Part shown: positions 1 to 5,638 of the stretch, one piece after another
How the letters are laid out: each line of letters starts with the position of its first letter
How positions within the stretch are numbered: position 1 is the stretch's first letter
Virus record (IMG/VR): IMGVR_UViG_2531839146_000005
DNA from: a virus
Lineage: Duplodnaviria; Heunggongvirae; Uroviricota; Caudoviricetes
Length of the DNA: 6,508 bases
Reading direction: 5' to 3' (one strand)
The notes under the pieces: generated by a model
Told to the model about the DNA's origin: nothing
Database searches by the model: none
The model's input: only the letters and a program-made list of their open reading frames with translations
Program-made: the position numbers and the translations under genes

Positions 1-248
1 TGGTGGCGATGTCTCTGTGGCATAACCATCCGAAGAAGACGCAGATGCCGTCCATGAATGAAGCCGTTAAACAGATTGAGCAGGAAGTGCTTACCACCTG
101 GCCCGCGGAGGCAATTTCTCATGCTGAAAACGTGGTGTACCGGCTGTCCGGTATGTATGAGTTTGTGGTGAATGATGCCCCTGAACAGGCAGAGGACGCC
201 GGGCCTGCAGAGCCTGTTTCTGCGGGAAAGTGTTCGACGGTGAGCTGA
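1..248 (+). CDS. G: Tail assembly chaperone G, 3' portion (5' end lies upstream of the window); frame-0 product ends at TGA 246-248
   Basis: ORF 3..248 translates to ...SLWHNHPKKTQMPSMNEAVKQIEQEVLTTWP...AGPAEPVSAGKCSTVS, which I recognise as the C-terminal part of lambda gpG. Sits immediately upstream of the T frame and tape measure gene, the conserved synteny. No start codon in the window (the track's leading M is a GTG read in-frame). Confidence 0.9.
   Translation, partial: VAMSLWHNHPKKTQMPSMNEAVKQIEQEVLTTWPAEAISHAENVVYRLSGMYEFVVNDAPEQAEDAGPAEPVSAGKCSTVS
224..230 (+). other. Programmed -1 ribosomal frameshift slippery heptamer G GGA AAG (G-T recoding site)
   Basis: Sequence gcGGGAAAGtg at 222-232. 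In the G frame the codons are GGA (225-227) and AAG (228-230). A -1 slip re-pairs to GGG AAA and continues at GTG (230-232) in the T frame. This is the same heptamer and position (about 6 codons before the G stop) as the known lambda G-T frameshift. Confidence 0.85.
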
Positions 249-664
249 GTTTTGCCCTGAAACTGGCGCGCGAGATGGGGCGACCCGACTGGCGTGCCAT
301 GCTTGCCGGGATGTCATCCACGGAGTATGCCGACTGGCACCGCTTTTACAGTACCCATTATTTTCATGATGTTCTGCTGGATATGCACTTTTCCGGGCTG
401 ACGTACACCGTGCTCAGCCTGTTTTTCAGCGATCCGGATATGCATCCGCTGGATTTCAGTCTGCTGAACCGGCGCGAGGCTGACGAAGAGCCTGAAGATG
501 ATGTGCTGATGCAGAAAGCGGCAGGGCTTGCCGGAGGTGTCCGCTTTGGCCCGGACGGGAATGAAGTTATCCCTACTTCCCCGGATGTGGCGGACATGAC
601 GGAGGATGACGTAATGCTGATGACAGTATCAGAAGGGATCGCAGGAGGAGTCCGGTATGGCTGA
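230..664 (+). CDS. T: Tail assembly protein T frame, expressed as the C-terminal part of the G-T fusion via -1 frameshift; no independent initiation expected
   Basis: Open frame 230..664 in the -1 frame relative to G, translating VFDGELSFALKLAREMGRPDWRAMLAGMSSTEYADWHRFYSTHYFHDVLLDMHF...EGIAGGVRYG, recognisable as lambda gpT. Stop TGA 662-664 overlaps the H start (ATGGCTGA). Confidence 0.88.
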   Translation: MFDGELSFALKLAREMGRPDWRAMLAGMSSTEYADWHRFYSTHYFHDVLLDMHFSGLTYTVLSLFFSDPDMHPLDFSLLNRREADEEPEDDVLMQKAAGLAGGVRFGPDGNEVIPTSPDVADMTEDDVMLMTVSEGIAGGVRYG

Positions 665-3236
665 ACCGGTAGGCGATCTGGTCGTTGATTTGAGTCTGGA
701 TGCGGCCAGATTTGACGAGCAGATGGCCAGAGTCAGGCGTCATTTTTCCGGTACGGAAAGTGATGCGAAAAAAACAGCGGCAGTCGTTGAACAGTCGCTG
801 AGCCGACAGGCGCTGGCTGCACAGAAAGCGGGGATTTCCGTCGGGCAGTATAAAGCCGCCATGCGTATGCTGCCTGCACAGTTCACCGACGTGGCCACGC
901 AGCTTGCAGGCGGGCAAAGTCCGTGGCTGATCCTGCTGCAACAGGGTGGTCAGGTTAAGGACTCCTTCGGCGGGATGATCCCCATGTTCAGGGGGCTTGC
1001 CGGTGCGATCACCCTGCCGATGGTGGGGGCCACCTCGCTGGCGGTGGCGACCGGTGCGCTGGCGTATGCCTGGTATCAGGGTAACTCAACCCTGTCCGAT
1101 TTCAACAAAACGCTGGTCCTTTCCGGCAATCAGGCGGGACTGACGGCAGATCGTATGCTGGTCCTGTCCAGAGCCGGGCAGGCGGCAGGGCTGACGTTTA
1201 ACCAGACCAGCGAGTCACTGACGGCGCTGGTGAATGCCGGTGTGCGTGGTGGTGAGCAGTTTGAGGCGATCAGCCAGAGTGTGGCGCGTTTCTCCTCTGC
1301 ATCCGGTGTGGAGGTGGACAAGGTCGCTGAAGCCTTCGGGAAGCTGACCACAGACCCGACGTCGGGGTTGACGGCGATGGCACGCCAGTTCCATAACGTG
1401 ACGGCGGAACAGATTGCGTATGTTGCTCAGTTGCAGCGTTCCGGCGATGAAGCCGGGGCATTGCAGGCGGCGAACGAGGCCGCAACGAAAGGGTTTGATG
1501 ACCAGACCCGACGCCTGAAAGAGAACATGGGCACGCTGGAGACCTGGGCAGACAGGACAGCACGGGCATTCAAATCCATGTGGGATTCGGTGCTGGATAT
1601 TGGTCGCCCGGACACTGCCCAGGGAATGCTGGAGAAAGCAGAAAAGGCTTTTGATGAGGCGGACAAAAAATGGCAGTGGTATCAGAGCCGGAGCCACCGG
1701 CGCGGTAAAACCTCAGCATTTCTTGCCAATCTCCGGGGAGCATGGGAGGACAGAGCGAATGCGCAACTTGGGCTTTCCGCCGCCACGTTGCAGGCCGATC
1801 TTGAAAAGGCCAGAGAGATGGCAGCAAAGGACTGGGCCGAGTCTGAGGCATCACGGCTGAAATATACCGAAGAGGCGCAGAAGGCTTACGAACGCCTGCA
1901 GACGCCGCTGGAGAAATATACCGCCCGTCAGGAAGAACTGAACAAGGCACTGAAAGACGGGAAAATCCTGCAGGCAGATTACAACACGCTGATGGCGGCG
2001 GCGAAAAAGGATTATGAAGCGACGCTGAAAAAGCCGAAACAGTCCGGCGTGAAGGTGTCTGCGGGCGATCGTCAGGAAGACAGTGCTCATGCTGCCCTGC
2101 TGACGCTTCAGGCAGAACTCCGGACGCTGGAGAAGCATGCCGGAGCGAATGAGAAAATCAGCCAGCAGCGCCGGGATTTGTGGAAGGCAGAAAGTCAGTT
2201 CGCGGTACTGGAGGAGGCGGCACAACGTCGCCAGCTGTCCGCACAGGAGAAATCCCTGCTGGCGCATAAAGATGAGACGCTGGAGTACAAACGCCAGCTG
2301 GCTGCACTTGGCGACAAGGTTACGTATCAGGAGCGCCTGAACGCGCTGGCGCAGCAGGCGGATAAATTCGCACAGCAGCAACGGGCAAAACGGGCCGCCA
2401 TTGATGCGAAAAGCCGGGGGCTGACTGACCGGCAGGCAGAACGGGAAGCCACGGAACAGCGCCTGAAGGAACAGTATGGCGATAATCCGCTGGCGCTGAA
2501 TAACGTCATGTCAGAGCAGAAAAAGACCTGGGCGGCTGAAGACCAGCTTCGCGGGAGCTGGATGGCAGGCCTGAAGTCCGGCTGGAGTGAGTGGGAAGAG
2601 AGCGCCACGGACAGTATGTCGCAGGTAAAAAGTGCAGCCACGCAGACCTTTGATGGTATTGCACAGAATATGGCGGCGATGCTGACCGGCAGTGAGCAGA
2701 ACTGGCGCAGCTTCACCCGTTCCGTGCTGTCCATGATGACAGAAATTCTGCTTAAGCAGGCAATGGTGGGGATTGTCGGGAGTATCGGCAGCGCCATTGG
2801 CGGGGCTGTTGGTGGCGGCGCATCCGCGTCAGGCGGTACAGCCATTCAGGCCGCTGCGGCGAAATTCCATTTTGCAACCGGAGGATTTACGGGAACCGGC
2901 GGCAAATATGAGCCAGCGGGGATTGTTCACCGTGGTGAGTTTGTCTTCACGAAGGAGGCAACCAGCCGGATTGGCGTGGGGAATCTTTACCGGCTGATGC
3001 GCGGCTATGCCACCGGCGGTTATGTCGGTACACCGGGCAGCATGGCAGACAGCCGGTCGCAGGCGTCCGGGACGTTTGAGCAGAATAACCATGTGGTGAT
3101 TAACAACGACGGCACGAACGGGCAGATAGGTCCGGCTGCTCTGAAGGCGGTGTATGACATGGCCCGCAAGGGTGCCCGTGATGAAATTCAGACACAGATG
3201 CGTGATGGTGGCCTGTTCTCCGGAGGTGGACGATGA
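657..3236 (+). CDS. H: Tail tape measure protein (tail length determinant), 859 aa
   Basis: Long ORF starting MAEPVGDLVVDLSLDAARFDEQMARVRRHF, matching the lambda gpH N-terminus. Shine-Dalgarno AGGAGGAG at 643-650, 8 nt before ATG 657. Large Ala/Gln/Arg/Glu/Lys-rich central region typical of coiled-coil tape measure proteins. Gly-rich hydrophobic segment near the C-terminus. Position after G/T matches the conserved order. Confidence 0.95.
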   Translation: MAEPVGDLVVDLSLDAARFDEQMARVRRHFSGTESDAKKTAAVVEQSLSRQALAAQKAGISVGQYKAAMRMLPAQFTDVATQLAGGQSPWLILLQQGGQVKDSFGGMIPMFRGLAGAITLPMVGATSLAVATGALAYAWYQGNSTLSDFNKTLVLSGNQAGLTADRMLVLSRAGQAAGLTFNQTSESLTALVNAGVRGGEQFEAISQSVARFSSASGVEVDKVAEAFGKLTTDPTSGLTAMARQFHNVTAEQIAYVAQLQRSGDEAGALQAANEAATKGFDDQTRRLKENMGTLETWADRTARAFKSMWDSVLDIGRPDTAQGMLEKAEKAFDEADKKWQWYQSRSHRRGKTSAFLANLRGAWEDRANAQLGLSAATLQADLEKAREMAAKDWAESEASRLKYTEEAQKAYERLQTPLEKYTARQEELNKALKDGKILQADYNTLMAAAKKDYEATLKKPKQSGVKVSAGDRQEDSAHAALLTLQAELRTLEKHAGANEKISQQRRDLWKAESQFAVLEEAAQRRQLSAQEKSLLAHKDETLEYKRQLAALGDKVTYQERLNALAQQADKFAQQQRAKRAAIDAKSRGLTDRQAEREATEQRLKEQYGDNPLALNNVMSEQKKTWAAEDQLRGSWMAGLKSGWSEWEESATDSMSQVKSAATQTFDGIAQNMAAMLTGSEQNWRSFTRSVLSMMTEILLKQAMVGIVGSIGSAIGGAVGGGASASGGTAIQAAAAKFHFATGGFTGTGGKYEPAGIVHRGEFVFTKEATSRIGVGNLYRLMRGYATGGYVGTPGSMADSRSQASGTFEQNNHVVINNDGTNGQIGPAALKAVYDMARKGARDEIQTQMRDGGLFSGGGR

Positions 3237-3562
3237 AGACCTTCCGCTGGAAAGTGAAACCCGGTATGGATGTGGCTTCGGTCCCTTCTGTAAGAAAGGT
3301 GCGCTTTGGTGATGGCTATTCCCAGCGAGCGCCTGCCGGGCTGAATGCCAACCTGAAAACGTACAGCGTGACGCTTTCTGTCCCCCGTGAGGAGGCCACG
3401 GTACTGGAGTCGTTTCTGGAAGAGCACGGGGGCTGGAAATCCTTTCTGTGGACGCCGCCTTATGAGTGGCGGCAGATAAAGGTGACCTGCGCAAAATGGT
3501 CGTCGCGGGTCAGTATGCTGCGTGTTGAGTTCAGCGCAGAGTTTGAACAGGTGGTGAACTGA
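3233..3562 (+). CDS. M: Minor tail protein M, 109 aa
   Basis: ORF MKTFRWKVKPGMDVASVPSVRKVRFGDGYSQRAPAGLNANLKTYSVTLSV... with ATG overlapping the H stop (ATGA at 3233-3236). GGAGG at 3221-3225, 7 nt upstream. Length and sequence match lambda gpM. Confidence 0.93.
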   Translation: MKTFRWKVKPGMDVASVPSVRKVRFGDGYSQRAPAGLNANLKTYSVTLSVPREEATVLESFLEEHGGWKSFLWTPPYEWRQIKVTCAKWSSRVSMLRVEFSAEFEQVVN

Positions 3563-4260
3563 TGCAGGATATCCGGCAGGAAACACTGAATGAATGCACC
3601 CGTGCGGAGCAGTCGGCCAGCGTGGTGCTCTGGGAAATCGACCTGACAGAGGTCGGTGGAGAACGTTATTTTTTCTGTAATGAGCAGAACGAAAAAGGTG
3701 AGCCGGTCACCTGGCAGGGGCGACAGTATCAGCCGTATCCCATTCAGGGGAGCGGTTTTGAACTGAATGGCAAAGGCACCAGTACGCGCCCCACGCTGAC
3801 GGTTTCTAACCTGTACGGTATGGTCACCGGGATGGCGGAAGATCTGCAGAGTCTGGTCGGCGGAACGGTGGTCCGGCGTAAGGTTTACGCCCGTTTTCTG
3901 GATGCGGTGAACTTCGTCAACGGAAACAGTGACGCCGATCCGGAGCAGGAGGTGATCAGCCGCTGGCGCATCGAGCAGTGCAGCGAACTGAGCGCGGTGA
4001 GTGCCTCCTTTGTACTGTCCACGCCGACGGAAACGGATGGCGCTGTTTTTCCGGGGCGCATCATGCTGGCTAACACCTGCACCTGGATCTATCGCGGTGA
4101 TGAGTGCGGTTATAATGGCCCAGCTGTCGCTGATGAATATGACCAGCCGACATCTGATATCTCGAAGGATAAATGCAGTAAATGCCTGAGCGGCTGTAAG
4201 TTCCGCAATAACGTCGGCAACTTTGGCGGCTTCCTTTCCATTAACAAACTTTCGCAGTAA
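3562..4260 (+). CDS. L: Minor tail protein L, 232 aa, with C-terminal cysteine cluster (Fe-S binding in the gpL family)
   Basis: ORF MQDIRQETLNECTRAEQSASVVLWEIDL..., same length as lambda gpL. Start overlaps the M stop (TGATG at 3560-3564). Cysteines in ...ANTCTWIYRGDECGYNG...KDKCSKCLSGC... at the C-terminus. Confidence 0.93.
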   Translation: MQDIRQETLNECTRAEQSASVVLWEIDLTEVGGERYFFCNEQNEKGEPVTWQGRQYQPYPIQGSGFELNGKGTSTRPTLTVSNLYGMVTGMAEDLQSLVGGTVVRRKVYARFLDAVNFVNGNSDADPEQEVISRWRIEQCSELSAVSASFVLSTPTETDGAVFPGRIMLANTCTWIYRGDECGYNGPAVADEYDQPTSDISKDKCSKCLSGCKFRNNVGNFGGFLSINKLSQ

Positions 4261-4265
4261 ATCCC

Positions 4266-5009
4266 ATGACAGAGACAGAATCAGCGATTCTGGCGCACGC
4301 CCGGCGATGTGCGCCAGCGGAGTCGTGCGGCTTCGTGGTGAGAACGCCGGAGGGGGAAAGATATTTTCCCTGCGTAAATATCTCCGGTGAGCCGGAGGAT
4401 TATTTTCGGATGTCGCCGGAGGACTGGCTGCAGGCAGAAATGCAGGGTGAGATTGTGGCGCTGGTCCACAGTCATCCCGGTGGTCTGCCCTGGCTGAGTG
4501 AGGCTGACCGGCGGCTGCAGGTGCAGAGTGATTTGCCGTGGTGGCTGGTCTGCCGGGGGGCGATTCATAAGTTCCGCTGTGTGCCGCATCTCACCGGGCG
4601 GCGCTTTGAGCACGGGGTGACGGACTGTTACACGCTGTTCCGGGATGCTTATCATCTGGCGGGGATTGAGATGCCGAATTTTCATCGCGGGGATGACTGG
4701 TGGCGTCACGGCCAGAATCTCTATCTGGATAATCTGGAGGACACAGGGCTGTATCAGGTGCCGTTGTCATCAGCACAACCGGGCGATGTGCTGCTGTGCT
4801 GTTTTGGTTCATCGGTGCCGAATCATGCCGCCATTTACTGTGGTGACGGCGAGCTGCTGCACCATATTCCTGAACAACTGAGCAAACGAGAGAGGTATAC
4901 CGACAAATGGCAGCGACGCACACACTCCCTCTGGCGTCACCGGGCATGGCGCGCATCTGCCTTTACGGGGATTTACAACGATTTGGCCGCCGCATCGACC
5001 TTCGTGTGA
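4266..5009 (+). CDS. K: Tail assembly protein K, JAMM/MPN metallopeptidase domain plus NlpC/P60-like domain; 247 aa from ATG 4266 (alternative internal start at 4410 would give 199 aa)
   Basis: ORF MTETESAILAHARRCAPAESCGFVV...ALVHSHPGGLPWLSEAD...GVTDCYTLF...NHAAIYCG... JAMM motif H-x-H-x7-S-x2-D at residues 68-81 (nt 4467-4508). Upstream E-x-C-G (E19, nt 4320-4331). Candidate NlpC/P60 catalytic Cys121 (nt 4626-4628). ATG 4266 lies 5 nt after the L stop. Confidence 0.88.
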   Translation: MTETESAILAHARRCAPAESCGFVVRTPEGERYFPCVNISGEPEDYFRMSPEDWLQAEMQGEIVALVHSHPGGLPWLSEADRRLQVQSDLPWWLVCRGAIHKFRCVPHLTGRRFEHGVTDCYTLFRDAYHLAGIEMPNFHRGDDWWRHGQNLYLDNLEDTGLYQVPLSSAQPGDVLLCCFGSSVPNHAAIYCGDGELLHHIPEQLSKRERYTDKWQRRTHSLWRHRAWRASAFTGIYNDLAAASTFV

Positions 5010-5578
5010 AAACGGGGGCTGAAGCCATCCGGGCGCTGGCCACACAGCTCCCGGCGTTTCGTCAGAAACTGAGCGACGGCTGGTATCAGGTACGGATTTC
5101 CGGGCGGGACGTCAGCACGTCCGGATTGACGGCGCAGTTACATGAGGTTCTGCCTGACGGCGCTGTGATTCATATTGTTCCCAGAGTCGCCGGGGCCAAG
5201 TCAGGGGGCGTATTCCAGATTGTTCTGGGGGCTGCCGCCATTGCCGGATCATTCTTTACTGCCGGAGCCACCCTTGCAGCATGGGGGGCAGCCATTGGGG
5301 CCGGTGGTATGACCAGTATCCTGTTTTCTCTCGGTGCCAGTATGGTACTTGGTGGTGTGGCGCAGATGCTGGCACCGAAAGCCAGGACGCCCACGGCAGC
5401 AAGTACAGATAACGGCAAACAGAACACCTATTTCTCCTCACTGGATAACATGGTTGCCCAGGGCAATGTTCTGCCCGTTCTGTACGGTGAAATGCGCGTG
5501 GGGTCGCGGGTGGTCTCTCAGGAGATCAGCACGGCAGACGAAGGGGATGGTGGTCAGGTTGTGGTGATTGGTCGCTGA
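4907..5578 (+). CDS. I: Tail assembly protein I, 223 aa; N-terminal ubiquitin-like region ending in Gly-Gly, C-terminal Gly/Ala-rich hydrophobic region
   Basis: ORF MAATHTLPLASPGMARICLYGDLQRFGRRIDLRVKTGAEAIRALATQ..., matching lambda gpI length (223 aa) and sequence. Overlaps the 3' end of K by 103 nt in a different frame, as in lambda. GG at residues 100-101 (nt 5204-5209) followed by VFQIVLGAAAIAGSFFTAGATLAAWGAAIGAGG. Confidence 0.9.
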   Translation: MAATHTLPLASPGMARICLYGDLQRFGRRIDLRVKTGAEAIRALATQLPAFRQKLSDGWYQVRISGRDVSTSGLTAQLHEVLPDGAVIHIVPRVAGAKSGGVFQIVLGAAAIAGSFFTAGATLAAWGAAIGAGGMTSILFSLGASMVLGGVAQMLAPKARTPTAASTDNGKQNTYFSSLDNMVAQGNVLPVLYGEMRVGSRVVSQEISTADEGDGGQVVVIGR

Positions 5579-5595
5579 TGCAAAATGTTTTATGT

Positions 5596-5620
5596 GAAAC
5601 CGCCTCCGGGCGGTTTTATC
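5596..5620 (+). terminator. GC-rich hairpin followed by T-tract in the I-J intergenic region (putative weak intrinsic terminator or RNA stability element)
   Basis: gAAACCGCC (5596-5604), loop tccg (5605-5608), GGCGGTTTt (5609-5617): a perfect 8-bp inverted repeat (5597-5604 with 5609-5616) followed by tttatcgtttat. It sits between the I stop (5576-5578) and the J Shine-Dalgarno (GGAG 5627-5630). Confidence 0.4.
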
Positions 5621-5638
5621 GTTTATGGAGCATGACGA

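What the first reader, a model, noticed from the sequence alone, without database searches (positions are those of the whole stretch)
4266..5578. K-I pair resembles a peptidase plus ubiquitin-like substrate built into tail assembly
K combines a JAMM/MPN metallopeptidase motif with an NlpC/P60-like Cys/His domain. The overlapping downstream gene I encodes an N-terminal domain of about 100 residues ending in Gly-Gly (VAGAKSGG, GG at nt 5204-5209), followed by a Gly/Ala-rich hydrophobic tail. This K/I pairing has been noted in comparative-genomics work on prokaryotic ubiquitin-like systems. Whether K actually processes I at the GG, and what the hydrophobic tail does, is as far as I know not well established experimentally. 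This is the most system-like feature in the window, but it is not novel.
Basis: partly seen in the sequence, partly recalled or inferred. Interest (0 to 1): 0.5.

Follow-up and report, generated by a model that had tools for sequence, protein, structure and literature searches.

The report
Lambda tail genes K and I

Summary

In 39 non-redundant K-I gene pairs, all nine catalytic residues of K are invariant, and a ubiquitin-like I gene follows K every time.

One correction: the family-conserved end of the ubiquitin-like domain is P92-x3-G96-A97, which aligns with the terminal Gly-Gly of MoaD. G100-G101 is missing in a quarter of the pairs and in the F-pyocin homologue, whose N-terminus is known to be removed.

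Published structures never show residues 1-100 of I, and one paper reports the closed-state model as starting at residue 101. No one has shown that K does the cutting.

The idea dates from Iyer et al. 2006, so this is already known. It still leaves a cheap, well-defined experiment.

The parts
4266..5009 (+). Gene K, tail tip assembly protein K, 247 aa (JAB + NlpC/P60)
   Evidence: ORF. It is 96% identical to K of resequenced lambda PV340536 and 100% identical to K of phage PhiR26_1.
4275..4559 (+). JAB/JAMM (MPN+) metallopeptidase domain of K, residues 4-98. Motif residues: E19 (nt 4320-4322), H68-x-H70 (4467-4475), S78 (4497-4499), D81 (4506-4508).
   Evidence: PF14464, E 4.7e-14. Residues verified. 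E19, H68, H70, S78 and D81 are invariant in 39/39 non-redundant homologues. The best NCBIfam hit is a desampylase, below cut-off.
4596..4937 (+). NlpC/P60 (C40, papain-like) cysteine peptidase domain of K, residues 111-224. Triad: C121 (nt 4626-4628), H187 (4824-4826), H199 (4860-4862).
   Evidence: PF00877, E 3.2e-12. D120, C121, H187 and H199 are invariant in 39/39.
4907..5578 (+). Gene I, tail tip assembly protein I, 223 aa from ATG 4907. The alternative and probably commoner start is M14 at nt 4946.
   Evidence: ORF. It is 96% identical to lambda gpI of PDB 8iyk. Homologues begin at the M14 equivalent. Public annotations disagree on the start.
4907..5009 (+). K/I overlap, 103 nt (64 nt if I starts at M14); I is in the -1 frame relative to K
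   Evidence: Both reading frames are conserved as protein in relatives.
4946..5182 (+). Ubiquitin-like beta-grasp domain of I, residues 14-92 (MoaD/ThiS/SAMP type)
5183..5203 (+). Flexible linker R93-S99 (RVAGAKS) holding the conserved G96-A97 (nt 5192-5197). This is the predicted scissile region and the homologue of a ubiquitin-like C-terminal Gly-Gly.
   Evidence: Coil between strand 87-92 and helix 100-118. P92 is 63/63 and 39/39; G96 is 61/63 and 38/39; position 97 is A/S/G in 61/63 and 39/39. A profile alignment puts 'PPVAGG' of the MoaD-related protein 1v8c on P92-A97, and the end of CysO-like 4n6e_B on G96.
5204..5209 (+). It is the N-cap of hydrophobic helix 1, not the end of the ubiquitin-like domain.
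   Evidence: nt GGGGGC. G100 is 29/63 and 21/39; G101 is 55/63 and 29/39; the pair is absent from a whole clade (10/39) that keeps the full JAMM motif. It is also absent from PA0640 ('GSKQSGLFQ'). The helix starts at residue 100.
5204..5371 (+). Gly/Ala-rich hydrophobic helices of I, about residues 100-155 (H1, H2)
   Evidence: Helices 100-118, 123-130 and 136-155 in the AF2 model at low confidence; hydropathy. In cryo-EM these helices surround the C-terminal coiled coil of gpH, and they disappear after LamB binding (PMC11101478, PMC10721106).
5381..5575 (+). C-terminal plug/insertion domain of I, residues 159-223
   Evidence: Residues 134/135-223 are modelled in lambda virions as a trimer. 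It plugs the tip lumen and pairs by beta-augmentation with gpJ. Conserved F176, N181, G186, P190, G194, G199 and S204.
5585..5633 (+). Stable hairpin in the I-J intergenic spacer (context only, not part of the K-I pair)
   Evidence: RNA fold -23.2 kcal/mol, z -2.6 against shuffles.

Best explanation
K and I are the lambda-type tail-tip assembly pair.

I is made as a precursor with four parts:
- a MoaD/SAMP-like ubiquitin-like domain (residues 14-92);
- a seven-residue flexible linker (RVAGAKS);
- two hydrophobic Gly/Ala-rich helices (about 100-155);
- a C-terminal domain (159-223) that threads between the hub domains of J.

The ubiquitin-like domain probably acts as a removable N-terminal chaperone or steric shield. 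It would keep the membrane-active helices soluble and hold the tip in an immature state. K is a cytoplasmic assembly factor that is not kept in the virion. Its JAMM zinc peptidase most likely docks on the ubiquitin-like domain and cuts the linker. The likely site is at or next to the conserved G96-A97, which is the homologue of the Gly-Gly that JAMM enzymes cut after in SAMP, CysO and QbsE precursors. The mature I of about 126 residues then sits as a trimer in the tip lumen and grips the C-terminus of the tape-measure protein H. After receptor binding it is released towards the outer membrane.

Shown here: the domain identities, the fold, the conservation of both active sites, the conserved linker motif and the strict K-I synteny. 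[quoted passage not shown] Inferred: that K's JAB is the enzyme, the exact bond cut, and the shield role. The role of the second (NlpC/P60) active site is unknown.
For: - Domains and motifs: Pfam hits for JAB, NlpC/P60 and Lambda_tail_I; catalytic residues verified.
- The JAB of K has the archaeal desampylase as its best NCBIfam hit, although below cut-off. This matches the SAMP-like fold of I.
- Synteny: every locus with enough flank has a JAB+NlpC gene followed by an Ubl+I-C gene. In 39 pairs under 90% identical, E19/H68/H70/S78/D81 and D120/C121/H187/H199 are 39/39.
- Linker: P92 is invariant, G96 is 97%, position 97 is A/S/G. It aligns to the terminal Gly-Gly of MoaD-type proteins.
- K homologues covering both domains occur in 1,720 of 50,697 phage records, across lambda-, HK97-, N15-, T1-like and Dhillonvirus phages and Klebsiella, Ralstonia, Burkholderia and Pseudomonas phages.
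- Literature: Iyer et al. 2006 predicted this reaction (PMC1779556). Lambda virion maps show gpI only from residue 134/135 (PMC10721106, PMC12617516). One paper reports the closed-state model as resolved from residue 101 (PMC11101478).
- gpK was not detected in virions by mass spectrometry. The one gpI peptide found covers 9.87% of the protein, which equals the 22-residue C-terminal tryptic peptide.
[quoted passage not shown] The gpK homologue PA0639 is needed for tip assembly, and the protease is stated to be unknown (bioRxiv 10.64898/2026.02.24.707460).
Against: - No experiment links K to the cleavage of I.
- The residue at the predicted P1 position is Ala or Ser, not the Gly of classical JAMM substrates.
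- PA0640 expressed alone in E. coli lost its N-terminal region to unknown host proteases, so a dedicated enzyme may not be strictly needed.
- Iyer et al. describe prophage variants in which TAPI sits next to a K that has only the NlpC/P60 domain. I did not see such variants, but my loci were selected through K.
- Missing cryo-EM density cannot tell a cleaved domain from a flexible one. The lambda mass-spectrometry coverage of gpI is a single peptide.
- A K+I co-fold could not be run, so no docking evidence was obtained.
- I could not read the coordinates of the closed-state model (PDB 8IYK/8IYL), so 'from residue 101' rests on one sentence of one paper.
Confidence: 0.6

Rival explanations
1. 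I is processed, but not by the JAB domain. The NlpC/P60 cysteine peptidase of K or host proteases remove the ubiquitin-like domain. The JAB either only binds and holds the ubiquitin-like domain or has another substrate.
For: - The NlpC/P60 triad is as invariant as the JAMM motif (39/39).
- The papain-like fold is shared with most eukaryotic deubiquitinases, and Iyer et al. raised this option.
- PA0640 alone is trimmed by host proteases in E. coli.
- The P1 residue is Ala/Ser rather than Gly.
- NlpC-only K variants next to TAPI are reported.
Against: - All five JAMM catalytic residues are kept down to 31% identity, always next to an Ubl-bearing I. A mere binding module would be expected to lose them.
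- JAMM enzymes are the known processing enzymes of MoaD/SAMP-type proteins, which is exactly the fold found.
Confidence: 0.2
2. The ubiquitin-like domain is not removed. It stays on I in the virion as a flexibly tethered, invisible domain, and K is a folding or assembly chaperone whose peptidase motifs serve something else.
For: - Cryo-EM averaging loses flexible domains.
- Authors describe the N-terminal domain as 'unresolved' or 'unseen' rather than as cleaved.
- Lambda mass-spectrometry coverage of gpI is one peptide.
Against: - In F-pyocin the N-terminal peptides are detected in stalled tips but not in mature particles.
- Residue 101 lies in the tip lumen beside the gpH coiled coil. Three 80-residue globular domains would be hard to place there (inference).
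- None of the good N-terminal tryptic peptides (ALATQLPAFR, LSDGWYQVR, ICLYGDLQR) was reported, whereas the C-terminal one was.
Confidence: 0.1
3. The JAB of K is mainly a counter-defence deubiquitinase. It strips host Bil-type ubiquitin-like conjugates from the central tail fibre J. Hör et al. suggested this as a speculation.
For: [quoted passage not shown]
- The authors note that phage tail-assembly DUB domains are 'not currently understood' and propose this anti-defence role (bioRxiv 10.1101/2023.09.04.556158).
Against: - K always sits next to a gene that itself encodes a ubiquitin-like domain (39/39). That supplies a resident substrate.
- K is needed for tail assembly in hosts not known to carry Bil. 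For lambda in E. coli K-12 this is established genetics; the PA0639 deletion abolishes F-pyocin tips.
- Phages carrying K homologues, such as Dhillonvirus, are still sensitive to Bil.
- The two roles are not exclusive.
Confidence: 0.05
4. The NlpC/P60 domain of K is a virion-borne cell-wall hydrolase used during DNA injection. One paper also speculates that the N-terminus of I is that enzyme.
For: - There is a weak match to TIGR02219, 'putative phage cell wall peptidase, NlpC/P60 family'.
- NlpC/P60 enzymes are typically peptidoglycan peptidases.
Against: - gpK was not found in lambda virions by mass spectrometry, nor PA0639 in F-pyocin particles.
- The N-terminus of I is a ubiquitin-like beta-grasp with no hydrolase features.
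Confidence: 0.04

Closest known systems
Phage lambda gpK / gpI (TAPK / TAPI of Iyer, Burroughs and Aravind 2006)
   Same: It is the same gene pair. K is 96% identical to K of resequenced lambda and I is 96% identical to gpI of PDB 8iyk. Gene order H-M-L-K-I-J and the 103-nt overlap are the same. The JAB+NlpC/P60 and Ubl+C-domain architectures are those described in 2006.
   Different: There are only point differences. Unlike the reference record J02459/NC_001416, this window carries the intact 247-aa K. The reference lacks one base and annotates a 199-aa K without the N-terminal third of the JAB domain.
F-type pyocin PA0639 / PA0640 of Pseudomonas aeruginosa
   Same: These are homologues of K and I in a phage-tail-like bacteriocin. 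Only residues 127-200 of PA0640 are seen in the particle, as a plug around the tape-measure C-terminus. The N-terminal region is removed during maturation, and PA0639 is required and absent from particles.
   Different: The linker reads G93-S94-K-Q-S-G with no Gly-Gly. It belongs to a tailocin, not a phage. The authors did not connect the cleavage to the JAB domain of PA0639.
JAMM-processed MoaD/ThiS-type proteins: archaeal SAMP1/2 with the desampylase HvJAMM1, CysO with Mec+, QbsE with QbsD
   Same: A MoaD-like beta-grasp is paired with a JAMM metallopeptidase that cuts right after its C-terminal tail. The structural hits are exactly these proteins, and the JAB's best NCBIfam hit is a desampylase. 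That these enzymes cut linear fusions after Gly-Gly is established knowledge, not tested here.
   Different: There is no E1-like adenylating enzyme, no sulfur chemistry and no conjugation. The ubiquitin-like domain is a built-in N-terminal pro-domain of a structural protein. The tail ends in Gly-Ala/Ser, and the JAB is fused to a second peptidase.
Eukaryotic ubiquitin-ribosomal protein fusions (UBA52, RPS27A) and other N-terminal ubiquitin-like pro-domains
   Same: An N-terminal ubiquitin-fold domain is made in one chain with a cargo. It is thought to aid the cargo's folding or solubility and is clipped off by a deubiquitinase before the cargo enters a large assembly (established knowledge).
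Phage T5 baseplate hub protein pb3, plug domain
   Same: It takes the same place and role as the C-terminal part of I: a trimeric plug that closes the tube under the tape-measure protein and is proposed to reach the outer membrane.
   Different: The plug is an insertion within one large hub protein. No separate I gene, ubiquitin-like domain or K gene is described for it.

Membership tests
JAMM / MPN+ metallopeptidases (Pfam Prok-JAB PF14464) | Profile match above the curated threshold | tested here: met
   K residues 4-98, 52.7 bits against a cut-off of 25, E 4.7e-14. PDB sequence hit 2kks, a JAB-like protein, E 1.6e-5.
JAMM / MPN+ metallopeptidases (Pfam Prok-JAB PF14464) | Catalytic motif E-x(n)-H-x-H-x7-S-x2-D (zinc ligands and general base) | tested here: met
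   E19, H68, H70, S78 and D81 are present and invariant in 39/39 non-redundant homologues down to 31% identity.
JAMM / MPN+ metallopeptidases (Pfam Prok-JAB PF14464) | MPN fold of the domain | not tested
   No model of K was made. Deep K alignments from loci were not accepted by the predictor.
JAMM / MPN+ metallopeptidases (Pfam Prok-JAB PF14464) | Zinc-dependent cleavage after the tail of a ubiquitin-like protein | not testable with these tools
   Needs biochemistry: K plus I, mass spectrometry, active-site mutants.
NlpC/P60 (MEROPS C40) papain-like peptidases | Profile match above the curated threshold | tested here: met
   K residues 111-224, 46.8 bits against a cut-off of 23, E 3.2e-12.
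NlpC/P60 (MEROPS C40) papain-like peptidases | Cys-His-His/polar catalytic triad | tested here: met
   C121 (in TDCY), H187 and H199 are all 39/39.
NlpC/P60 (MEROPS C40) papain-like peptidases | Peptidoglycan (or other) peptidase activity and access to that substrate | not testable with these tools
   The substrate is unknown. K is reported absent from virions, which argues against a cell-wall role at infection.
MoaD/ThiS/SAMP/Urm1-type ubiquitin-like beta-grasp domains | Beta-grasp fold | tested here: met
MoaD/ThiS/SAMP/Urm1-type ubiquitin-like beta-grasp domains | Gly-Gly at the end of the flexible tail after the last strand | tested here: inconclusive
   At the homologous position the family has G96 (97%) followed by A/S/G97, that is Gly-Ala here. 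The literal Gly-Gly at 100-101 is four residues further on, is not conserved (G100 46-54%), and is absent in 10/39 pairs and in PA0640.
MoaD/ThiS/SAMP/Urm1-type ubiquitin-like beta-grasp domains | Partner E1-like (ThiF/MoeB) adenylating enzyme, i.e. a conjugation or sulfur-carrier system | tested here: not met
   The neighbours in the window and in related loci are only tail genes (tape measure, M, L, K, I, J). It is therefore a protease-plus-pro-domain pair, not a conjugation system.
Lambda tail assembly protein I (Pfam Lambda_tail_I PF06805) | Profile match, near-identity to lambda gpI, and position between K and J | tested here: met
   94.8 bits against a cut-off of 23.8. E 3.9e-137 to the 8iyk gpI sequence over 1-223. 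Gene order L-K-I-J.

The most novel reading that the evidence does not exclude
K could be a dual-purpose deubiquitinase-like enzyme. Besides clipping the phage's own ubiquitin-like pro-domain off I (at G96-A97), its JAB or NlpC/P60 site might also remove host Bil-type ubiquitin-like conjugates from the central fibre J. In that case the resident Ubl-JAB pair of lambda-like tails would double as a counter-defence. Hör et al. floated the anti-Bil half as a speculation, and nothing here tests it. A still weaker variant is that the second peptidase domain performs the orphan gpH to gpH* cleavage.
Probability: 0.07. Interest if true: 0.7.

Novelty: already known. Interest (0 to 1): 0.3.

Why it matters
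The pair itself is textbook lambda, and the enzyme-substrate idea is twenty years old. It is worth keeping in view because recent structural papers leave the question open without citing that idea. The lambda papers call the first 100 residues of gpI 'unresolved', and one guesses that they form a wall hydrolase. The 2026 F-pyocin preprint shows that the homologous region is cut off and says the mechanism is unknown. The Bil paper says phage tail DUB domains are not understood.

Part of the reason is annotation. The lambda reference record truncates K so that the JAB domain is split, and several records start I inside the ubiquitin-like domain. With the intact genes, as in this window, the hypothesis is sharp and cheap to test: co-express K and I, find the new N-terminus, and mutate H68/H70, C121 and G96/A97.

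If confirmed, it would be a clear viral case of a ubiquitin-like pro-domain with a dedicated JAMM protease timing a step of capsid-tail morphogenesis. It would apply to about 3% of sequenced phages and to F-type tailocins.

Tried and rejected
- **K+I co-fold.** I built a chain K-(GGGGS)5G-I(14-135) with 24 paired homologue rows (A7).
- **Locus searches with I alignments.** A2 and A3 failed for lack of a conserved 7-10 column stretch. A5 failed on genome contigs.
- **Viral-contig scan with A5.** It returned only 96-98% identical loci, so they were not used for conservation.
- **Programmed K-I frameshift fusion: rejected.** Database proteins joining K and I (P0010, P0013, P0015, P0019, P0033, P0076 and others) are mostly single-member clusters. 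Each has a different junction, as expected from independent frameshift errors. P0036 is a deletion fusing K residue 66 to I residue 44. P0124, P0150 and P0155 are chimeras with unrelated phage proteins. The second GGGAAAG (4354-4360) is not in the K frame for a -1 slip, and two copies per window is within chance.
- **Internal initiation at M135 as the source of the virion form of I: rejected.** One structure paper reports residues from 101, and M135 is not conserved.
- **N-terminus of I as a peptidoglycan hydrolase (suggested in PMC11101478): rejected** on the fold.
- **Other reading frames.** Antisense and alternative-frame ORFs inside 4266-5578 have no Pfam match above any threshold.
- **Literature searches.** Searches for an experimental test of K-dependent cleavage found nothing.
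- **Deep K homologue search.** I chose not to spend a database-wide protein search on K, because the locus-derived set already gave 39 divergent pairs.
Full report
**What the window is.** The 6.5-kb window is a lambdoid tail module. Over its full length it is 97.7% identical to Escherichia phage PhiR68_2, about 95.7% identical to lambda-derived genomes, and 99.1% identical to PhiR26_1 over 97% of its length. The ORFs and Pfam matches give the order G/T (3-664), H tape measure (657-3236), M (3233-3562), L (3562-4260), K (4266-5009), I (4907-5578) and the start of J (5639 onward). The finding therefore concerns lambda genes K and I.

**Check of the observation.** All stated details are present. 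K is 247 aa. E19, H68, H70, S78 and D81 form a complete JAMM motif, and C121 lies in 'TDCY'. I is 223 aa from the ATG at 4907, and residues 94-101 read VAGAKSGG with G100-G101 at nt 5204-5209. A hydrophobic Gly/Ala-rich stretch follows.

Pfam places the following domains, all well above the curated cut-offs:
- Prok-JAB on K residues 4-98 (E 4.7e-14);
- NLPC_P60 on K residues 111-224 (E 3.2e-12);
- Lambda_tail_I on I residues 14-97 (E 4.3e-27).

Alternative-frame and antisense ORFs in the interval have no significant family match. The description leaves out the C-terminal domain of I (about residues 159-223).

**Gene K is whole here but truncated in the lambda reference.** The reference record (J02459/NC_001416) annotates K as 199 aa starting at M49. 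It leaves a 76-aa ORF upstream that carries E19. An alignment shows that the reference lacks one base at window position about 4399. Independently sequenced lambda genomes and many relatives have the extra base (302 against 301 nt). These include PV340536, LC730321, KT232076 and DE3. PV340536 annotates a 247-aa K directly after L. The missing base lies just after a GC-rich hairpin at 4381-4398, so a gel compression in the 1982 sequence is a likely cause (inference).

This has consequences in the literature. A 2020 survey working from the 199-aa K saw only 'a peptidase domain'. Working from a 190-aa I, it saw only an 'alpha-beta-alpha-beta motif' (PMC7291167).

**The N-terminus of I is a MoaD/SAMP-type ubiquitin-like domain.** A library-wide HMMER search found 3,193 relatives of I at E ≤ 0.001. 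Most begin at the equivalent of M14. With 63 of them as the alignment (A2), AlphaFold2 gave pLDDT 92-97 for residues 11-93. The strands are 14-19, 29-33, 60-64 and 87-92, and the helices are 37-47 and 49-57. Then comes a coil at 93-99, followed by low-confidence helices at 100-118, 123-130 and 136-155.

**Where the ubiquitin-like domain ends.** Conservation does not single out G100-G101.

| Position | 63 relatives | 39 non-redundant K-I pairs |
|---|---|---|
| P92 | 63/63 | 39/39 |
| G96 | 61/63 | 38/39 |
| 97 | A 50, S 9, G 2 | A 33, S 5, G 1 |
| G100 | 29/63 | 21/39 |
| G101 | 55/63 | 29/39 |

Ten pairs from enterobacterial prophages (Atlantibacter, Phytobacter, Rahnella, Erwinia, Hafnia, Enterobacter, Citrobacter, Pantoea and others) lack the K-S-G-G segment altogether ('FVPVVEGA-ITAAA'). 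They still keep every JAMM residue in K.

A profile of the domain (A4) was searched against PDB sequences. It aligned 'LDLFPPVAGGG' of the MoaD-related protein 1v8c with 'lhivPvvaGak'. It also ended on G96 at residue 89 of the 90-residue CysO-like 4n6e_B. These are weak E-values, but the same proteins were found independently by fold. So G96-A97 is the counterpart of the terminal Gly-Gly, and G100-G101 is the N-cap of the first hydrophobic helix.

The F-pyocin homologue PA0640, whose N-terminal region is removed, reads G-S-K-Q-S-G at this place and has no Gly-Gly. One paper states that in the closed-state model (it cites PDB 8IYK/8IYL) gpI is resolved 'from position 101 onward'. If so, G101 is part of the mature protein and the cut lies before it. 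I could not read the coordinates to confirm this.

**K and its link to I.** Divergent I homologues (36-46% identity) sit in the same H-M-L-K-I-J order. A scan of one genome per bacterial species returned 80 loci. In every locus with enough flank, home-made HMMs found JAB then NlpC/P60 in one ORF, followed by Ubl then I-C in the next. Two variations appeared: Oxalobacter has two tandem I genes, and Pandoraea has an extra gene between K and I.

In the 39 pairs, E19, H68, H70, S78, D81, D120, C121, H187 and H199 are all invariant, at K identities down to 31%. Both active sites are therefore under selection. The JAB's best NCBIfam hit is the archaeal desampylase, below cut-off, which fits the SAMP-like fold of I. 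By tblastn, K homologues covering at least 80% of the protein occur in 1,720 of 50,697 phage records, across many siphophage groups. These loci were selected through K, so they cannot reveal K-less or JAB-less variants; Iyer et al. report some.

**What is known from experiments.**
- Iyer, Burroughs and Aravind (2006) found the Ubl in TAPI and the JAB+NlpC/P60 in TAPK. They wrote that TAPI is 'quite probably' processed by TAPK at the C-terminal-most glycine of the Ubl.
- Lambda virion structures place the C-terminal part of gpI as a trimer in the tip lumen. It holds the C-terminal coiled coil of gpH and pairs with gpJ. Residues 134/135-223 are modelled.
- The hydrophobic helices vanish after LamB binding and are proposed to enter the outer membrane.
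- gpK was not detected in virions. gpI gave one peptide at 9.87% coverage, which equals the 22-residue C-terminal tryptic peptide.
- For F-pyocin, N-terminal peptides of PA0640 are found in stalled tips but not in mature particles. PA0639 (the K homologue) is required and is not in particles. The authors call the cleavage mechanism unknown.
- Searches found no direct test of K acting on I.

**Most likely mechanism.** The Ubl of I is a removable pro-domain. It keeps the hydrophobic helices soluble and the tip immature. K's JAMM site cuts the seven-residue linker at or next to G96-A97, leaving a mature I of about 126 residues.

I put this at about 0.6. The rivals are:
- cleavage by the NlpC/P60 site or by host proteases (0.2);
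- no cleavage, with the Ubl flexible but still attached (0.1);
- JAB mainly as an anti-Bil deubiquitinase, as Hör et al. speculated (0.05);
- a wall hydrolase role for K (0.04).

The role of the NlpC/P60 site remains open.

**Novelty and verdict.** The pair is known, and so is the hypothesis. This work adds four things:
- a confident fold assignment;
- the shift of the predicted site from G100-G101 to G96-A97;
- the invariance of both active sites across 39 pairs;
- the observation that reference mis-annotation hides the JAB and the Ubl.

Interest is modest (0.3). A specialist would not be surprised. However, the open question of who removes the N-terminal domain of gpI/PA0640 is directly testable.

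Noticed in passing
window 4381-4400 (lambda NC_001416 about 14264-14266; L001 1265-1267): The lambda reference sequence lacks one base here ('GAGG-CTAT' against 'GAGGATTAT'). This splits K into a 76-aa ORF and the annotated 199-aa K. Resequenced lambda genomes and relatives have the base and a 247-aa K. The site follows a GC-rich hairpin (4381-4398), which suggests an old gel-compression error.
   Followed up: yes
window 4907, 4946, 4973, 5006: Public records start gene I at four different codons, giving 223, 210, 201 or 190 aa. Homologues and the Pfam match begin at the M14 equivalent (4946). A GAGAGG Shine-Dalgarno-like motif precedes 4907. The two shortest annotations cut into the first strand of the ubiquitin-like domain.
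   Followed up: partly
window 5585-5633: The I-J intergenic spacer has a stable hairpin (-23.2 kcal/mol, z -2.6), with a GC-rich core (GAAACCGCC/GGCGGUUUU) followed by a short U-rich run. It looks like a terminator, but the simple terminator scan did not call it.
   Followed up: partly
loci L094-L106, L109, L115-L116, L118-L119, L123, L126, L131, L137-L138, L143, L169: Near-identical (94-98%) lambda K sequences sit on short or low-coverage contigs (where a coverage value is given in the title, about 1-2x) in assemblies of unrelated bacteria. Examples are Neobacillus, Enterococcus, Paenibacillus, Shewanella, Bradyrhizobium, Streptomyces and Vibrio. This is most likely lambda DNA contamination of the sequencing libraries.
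   Followed up: no
proteins P0010, P0013, P0015, P0019, P0033, P0036, P0076, P0124, P0150, P0155: Database 'proteins' that join K to I, or I to terminase-, capsid- or tail tube-like sequence, have a different junction each time and are mostly single-member clusters. They look like frameshift or assembly artefacts, not natural fusions. PHROG phrog_35166 may be a true JAB+I fusion family and was not examined.
   Followed up: partly
protein P0167: A 2,783-aa highly repetitive protein matches residues 10-64 of I in 23 separate stretches (summed E 1.4e-37). By eye there is no convincing similarity, and its origin and meaning are unexplained.
   Followed up: no
L163 3396-4684; L170-L172, about 3200-3750: An Oxalobacter prophage carries two tandem I genes, each with an Ubl and a C-terminal part. 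Pandoraea prophages have an extra gene of about 500 nt between K and I.
   Followed up: no
window 224-230: The GGGAAAG heptamer lies at the end of gene G. It is the known -1 frameshift site that produces the G-T fusion in lambda.
   Followed up: no
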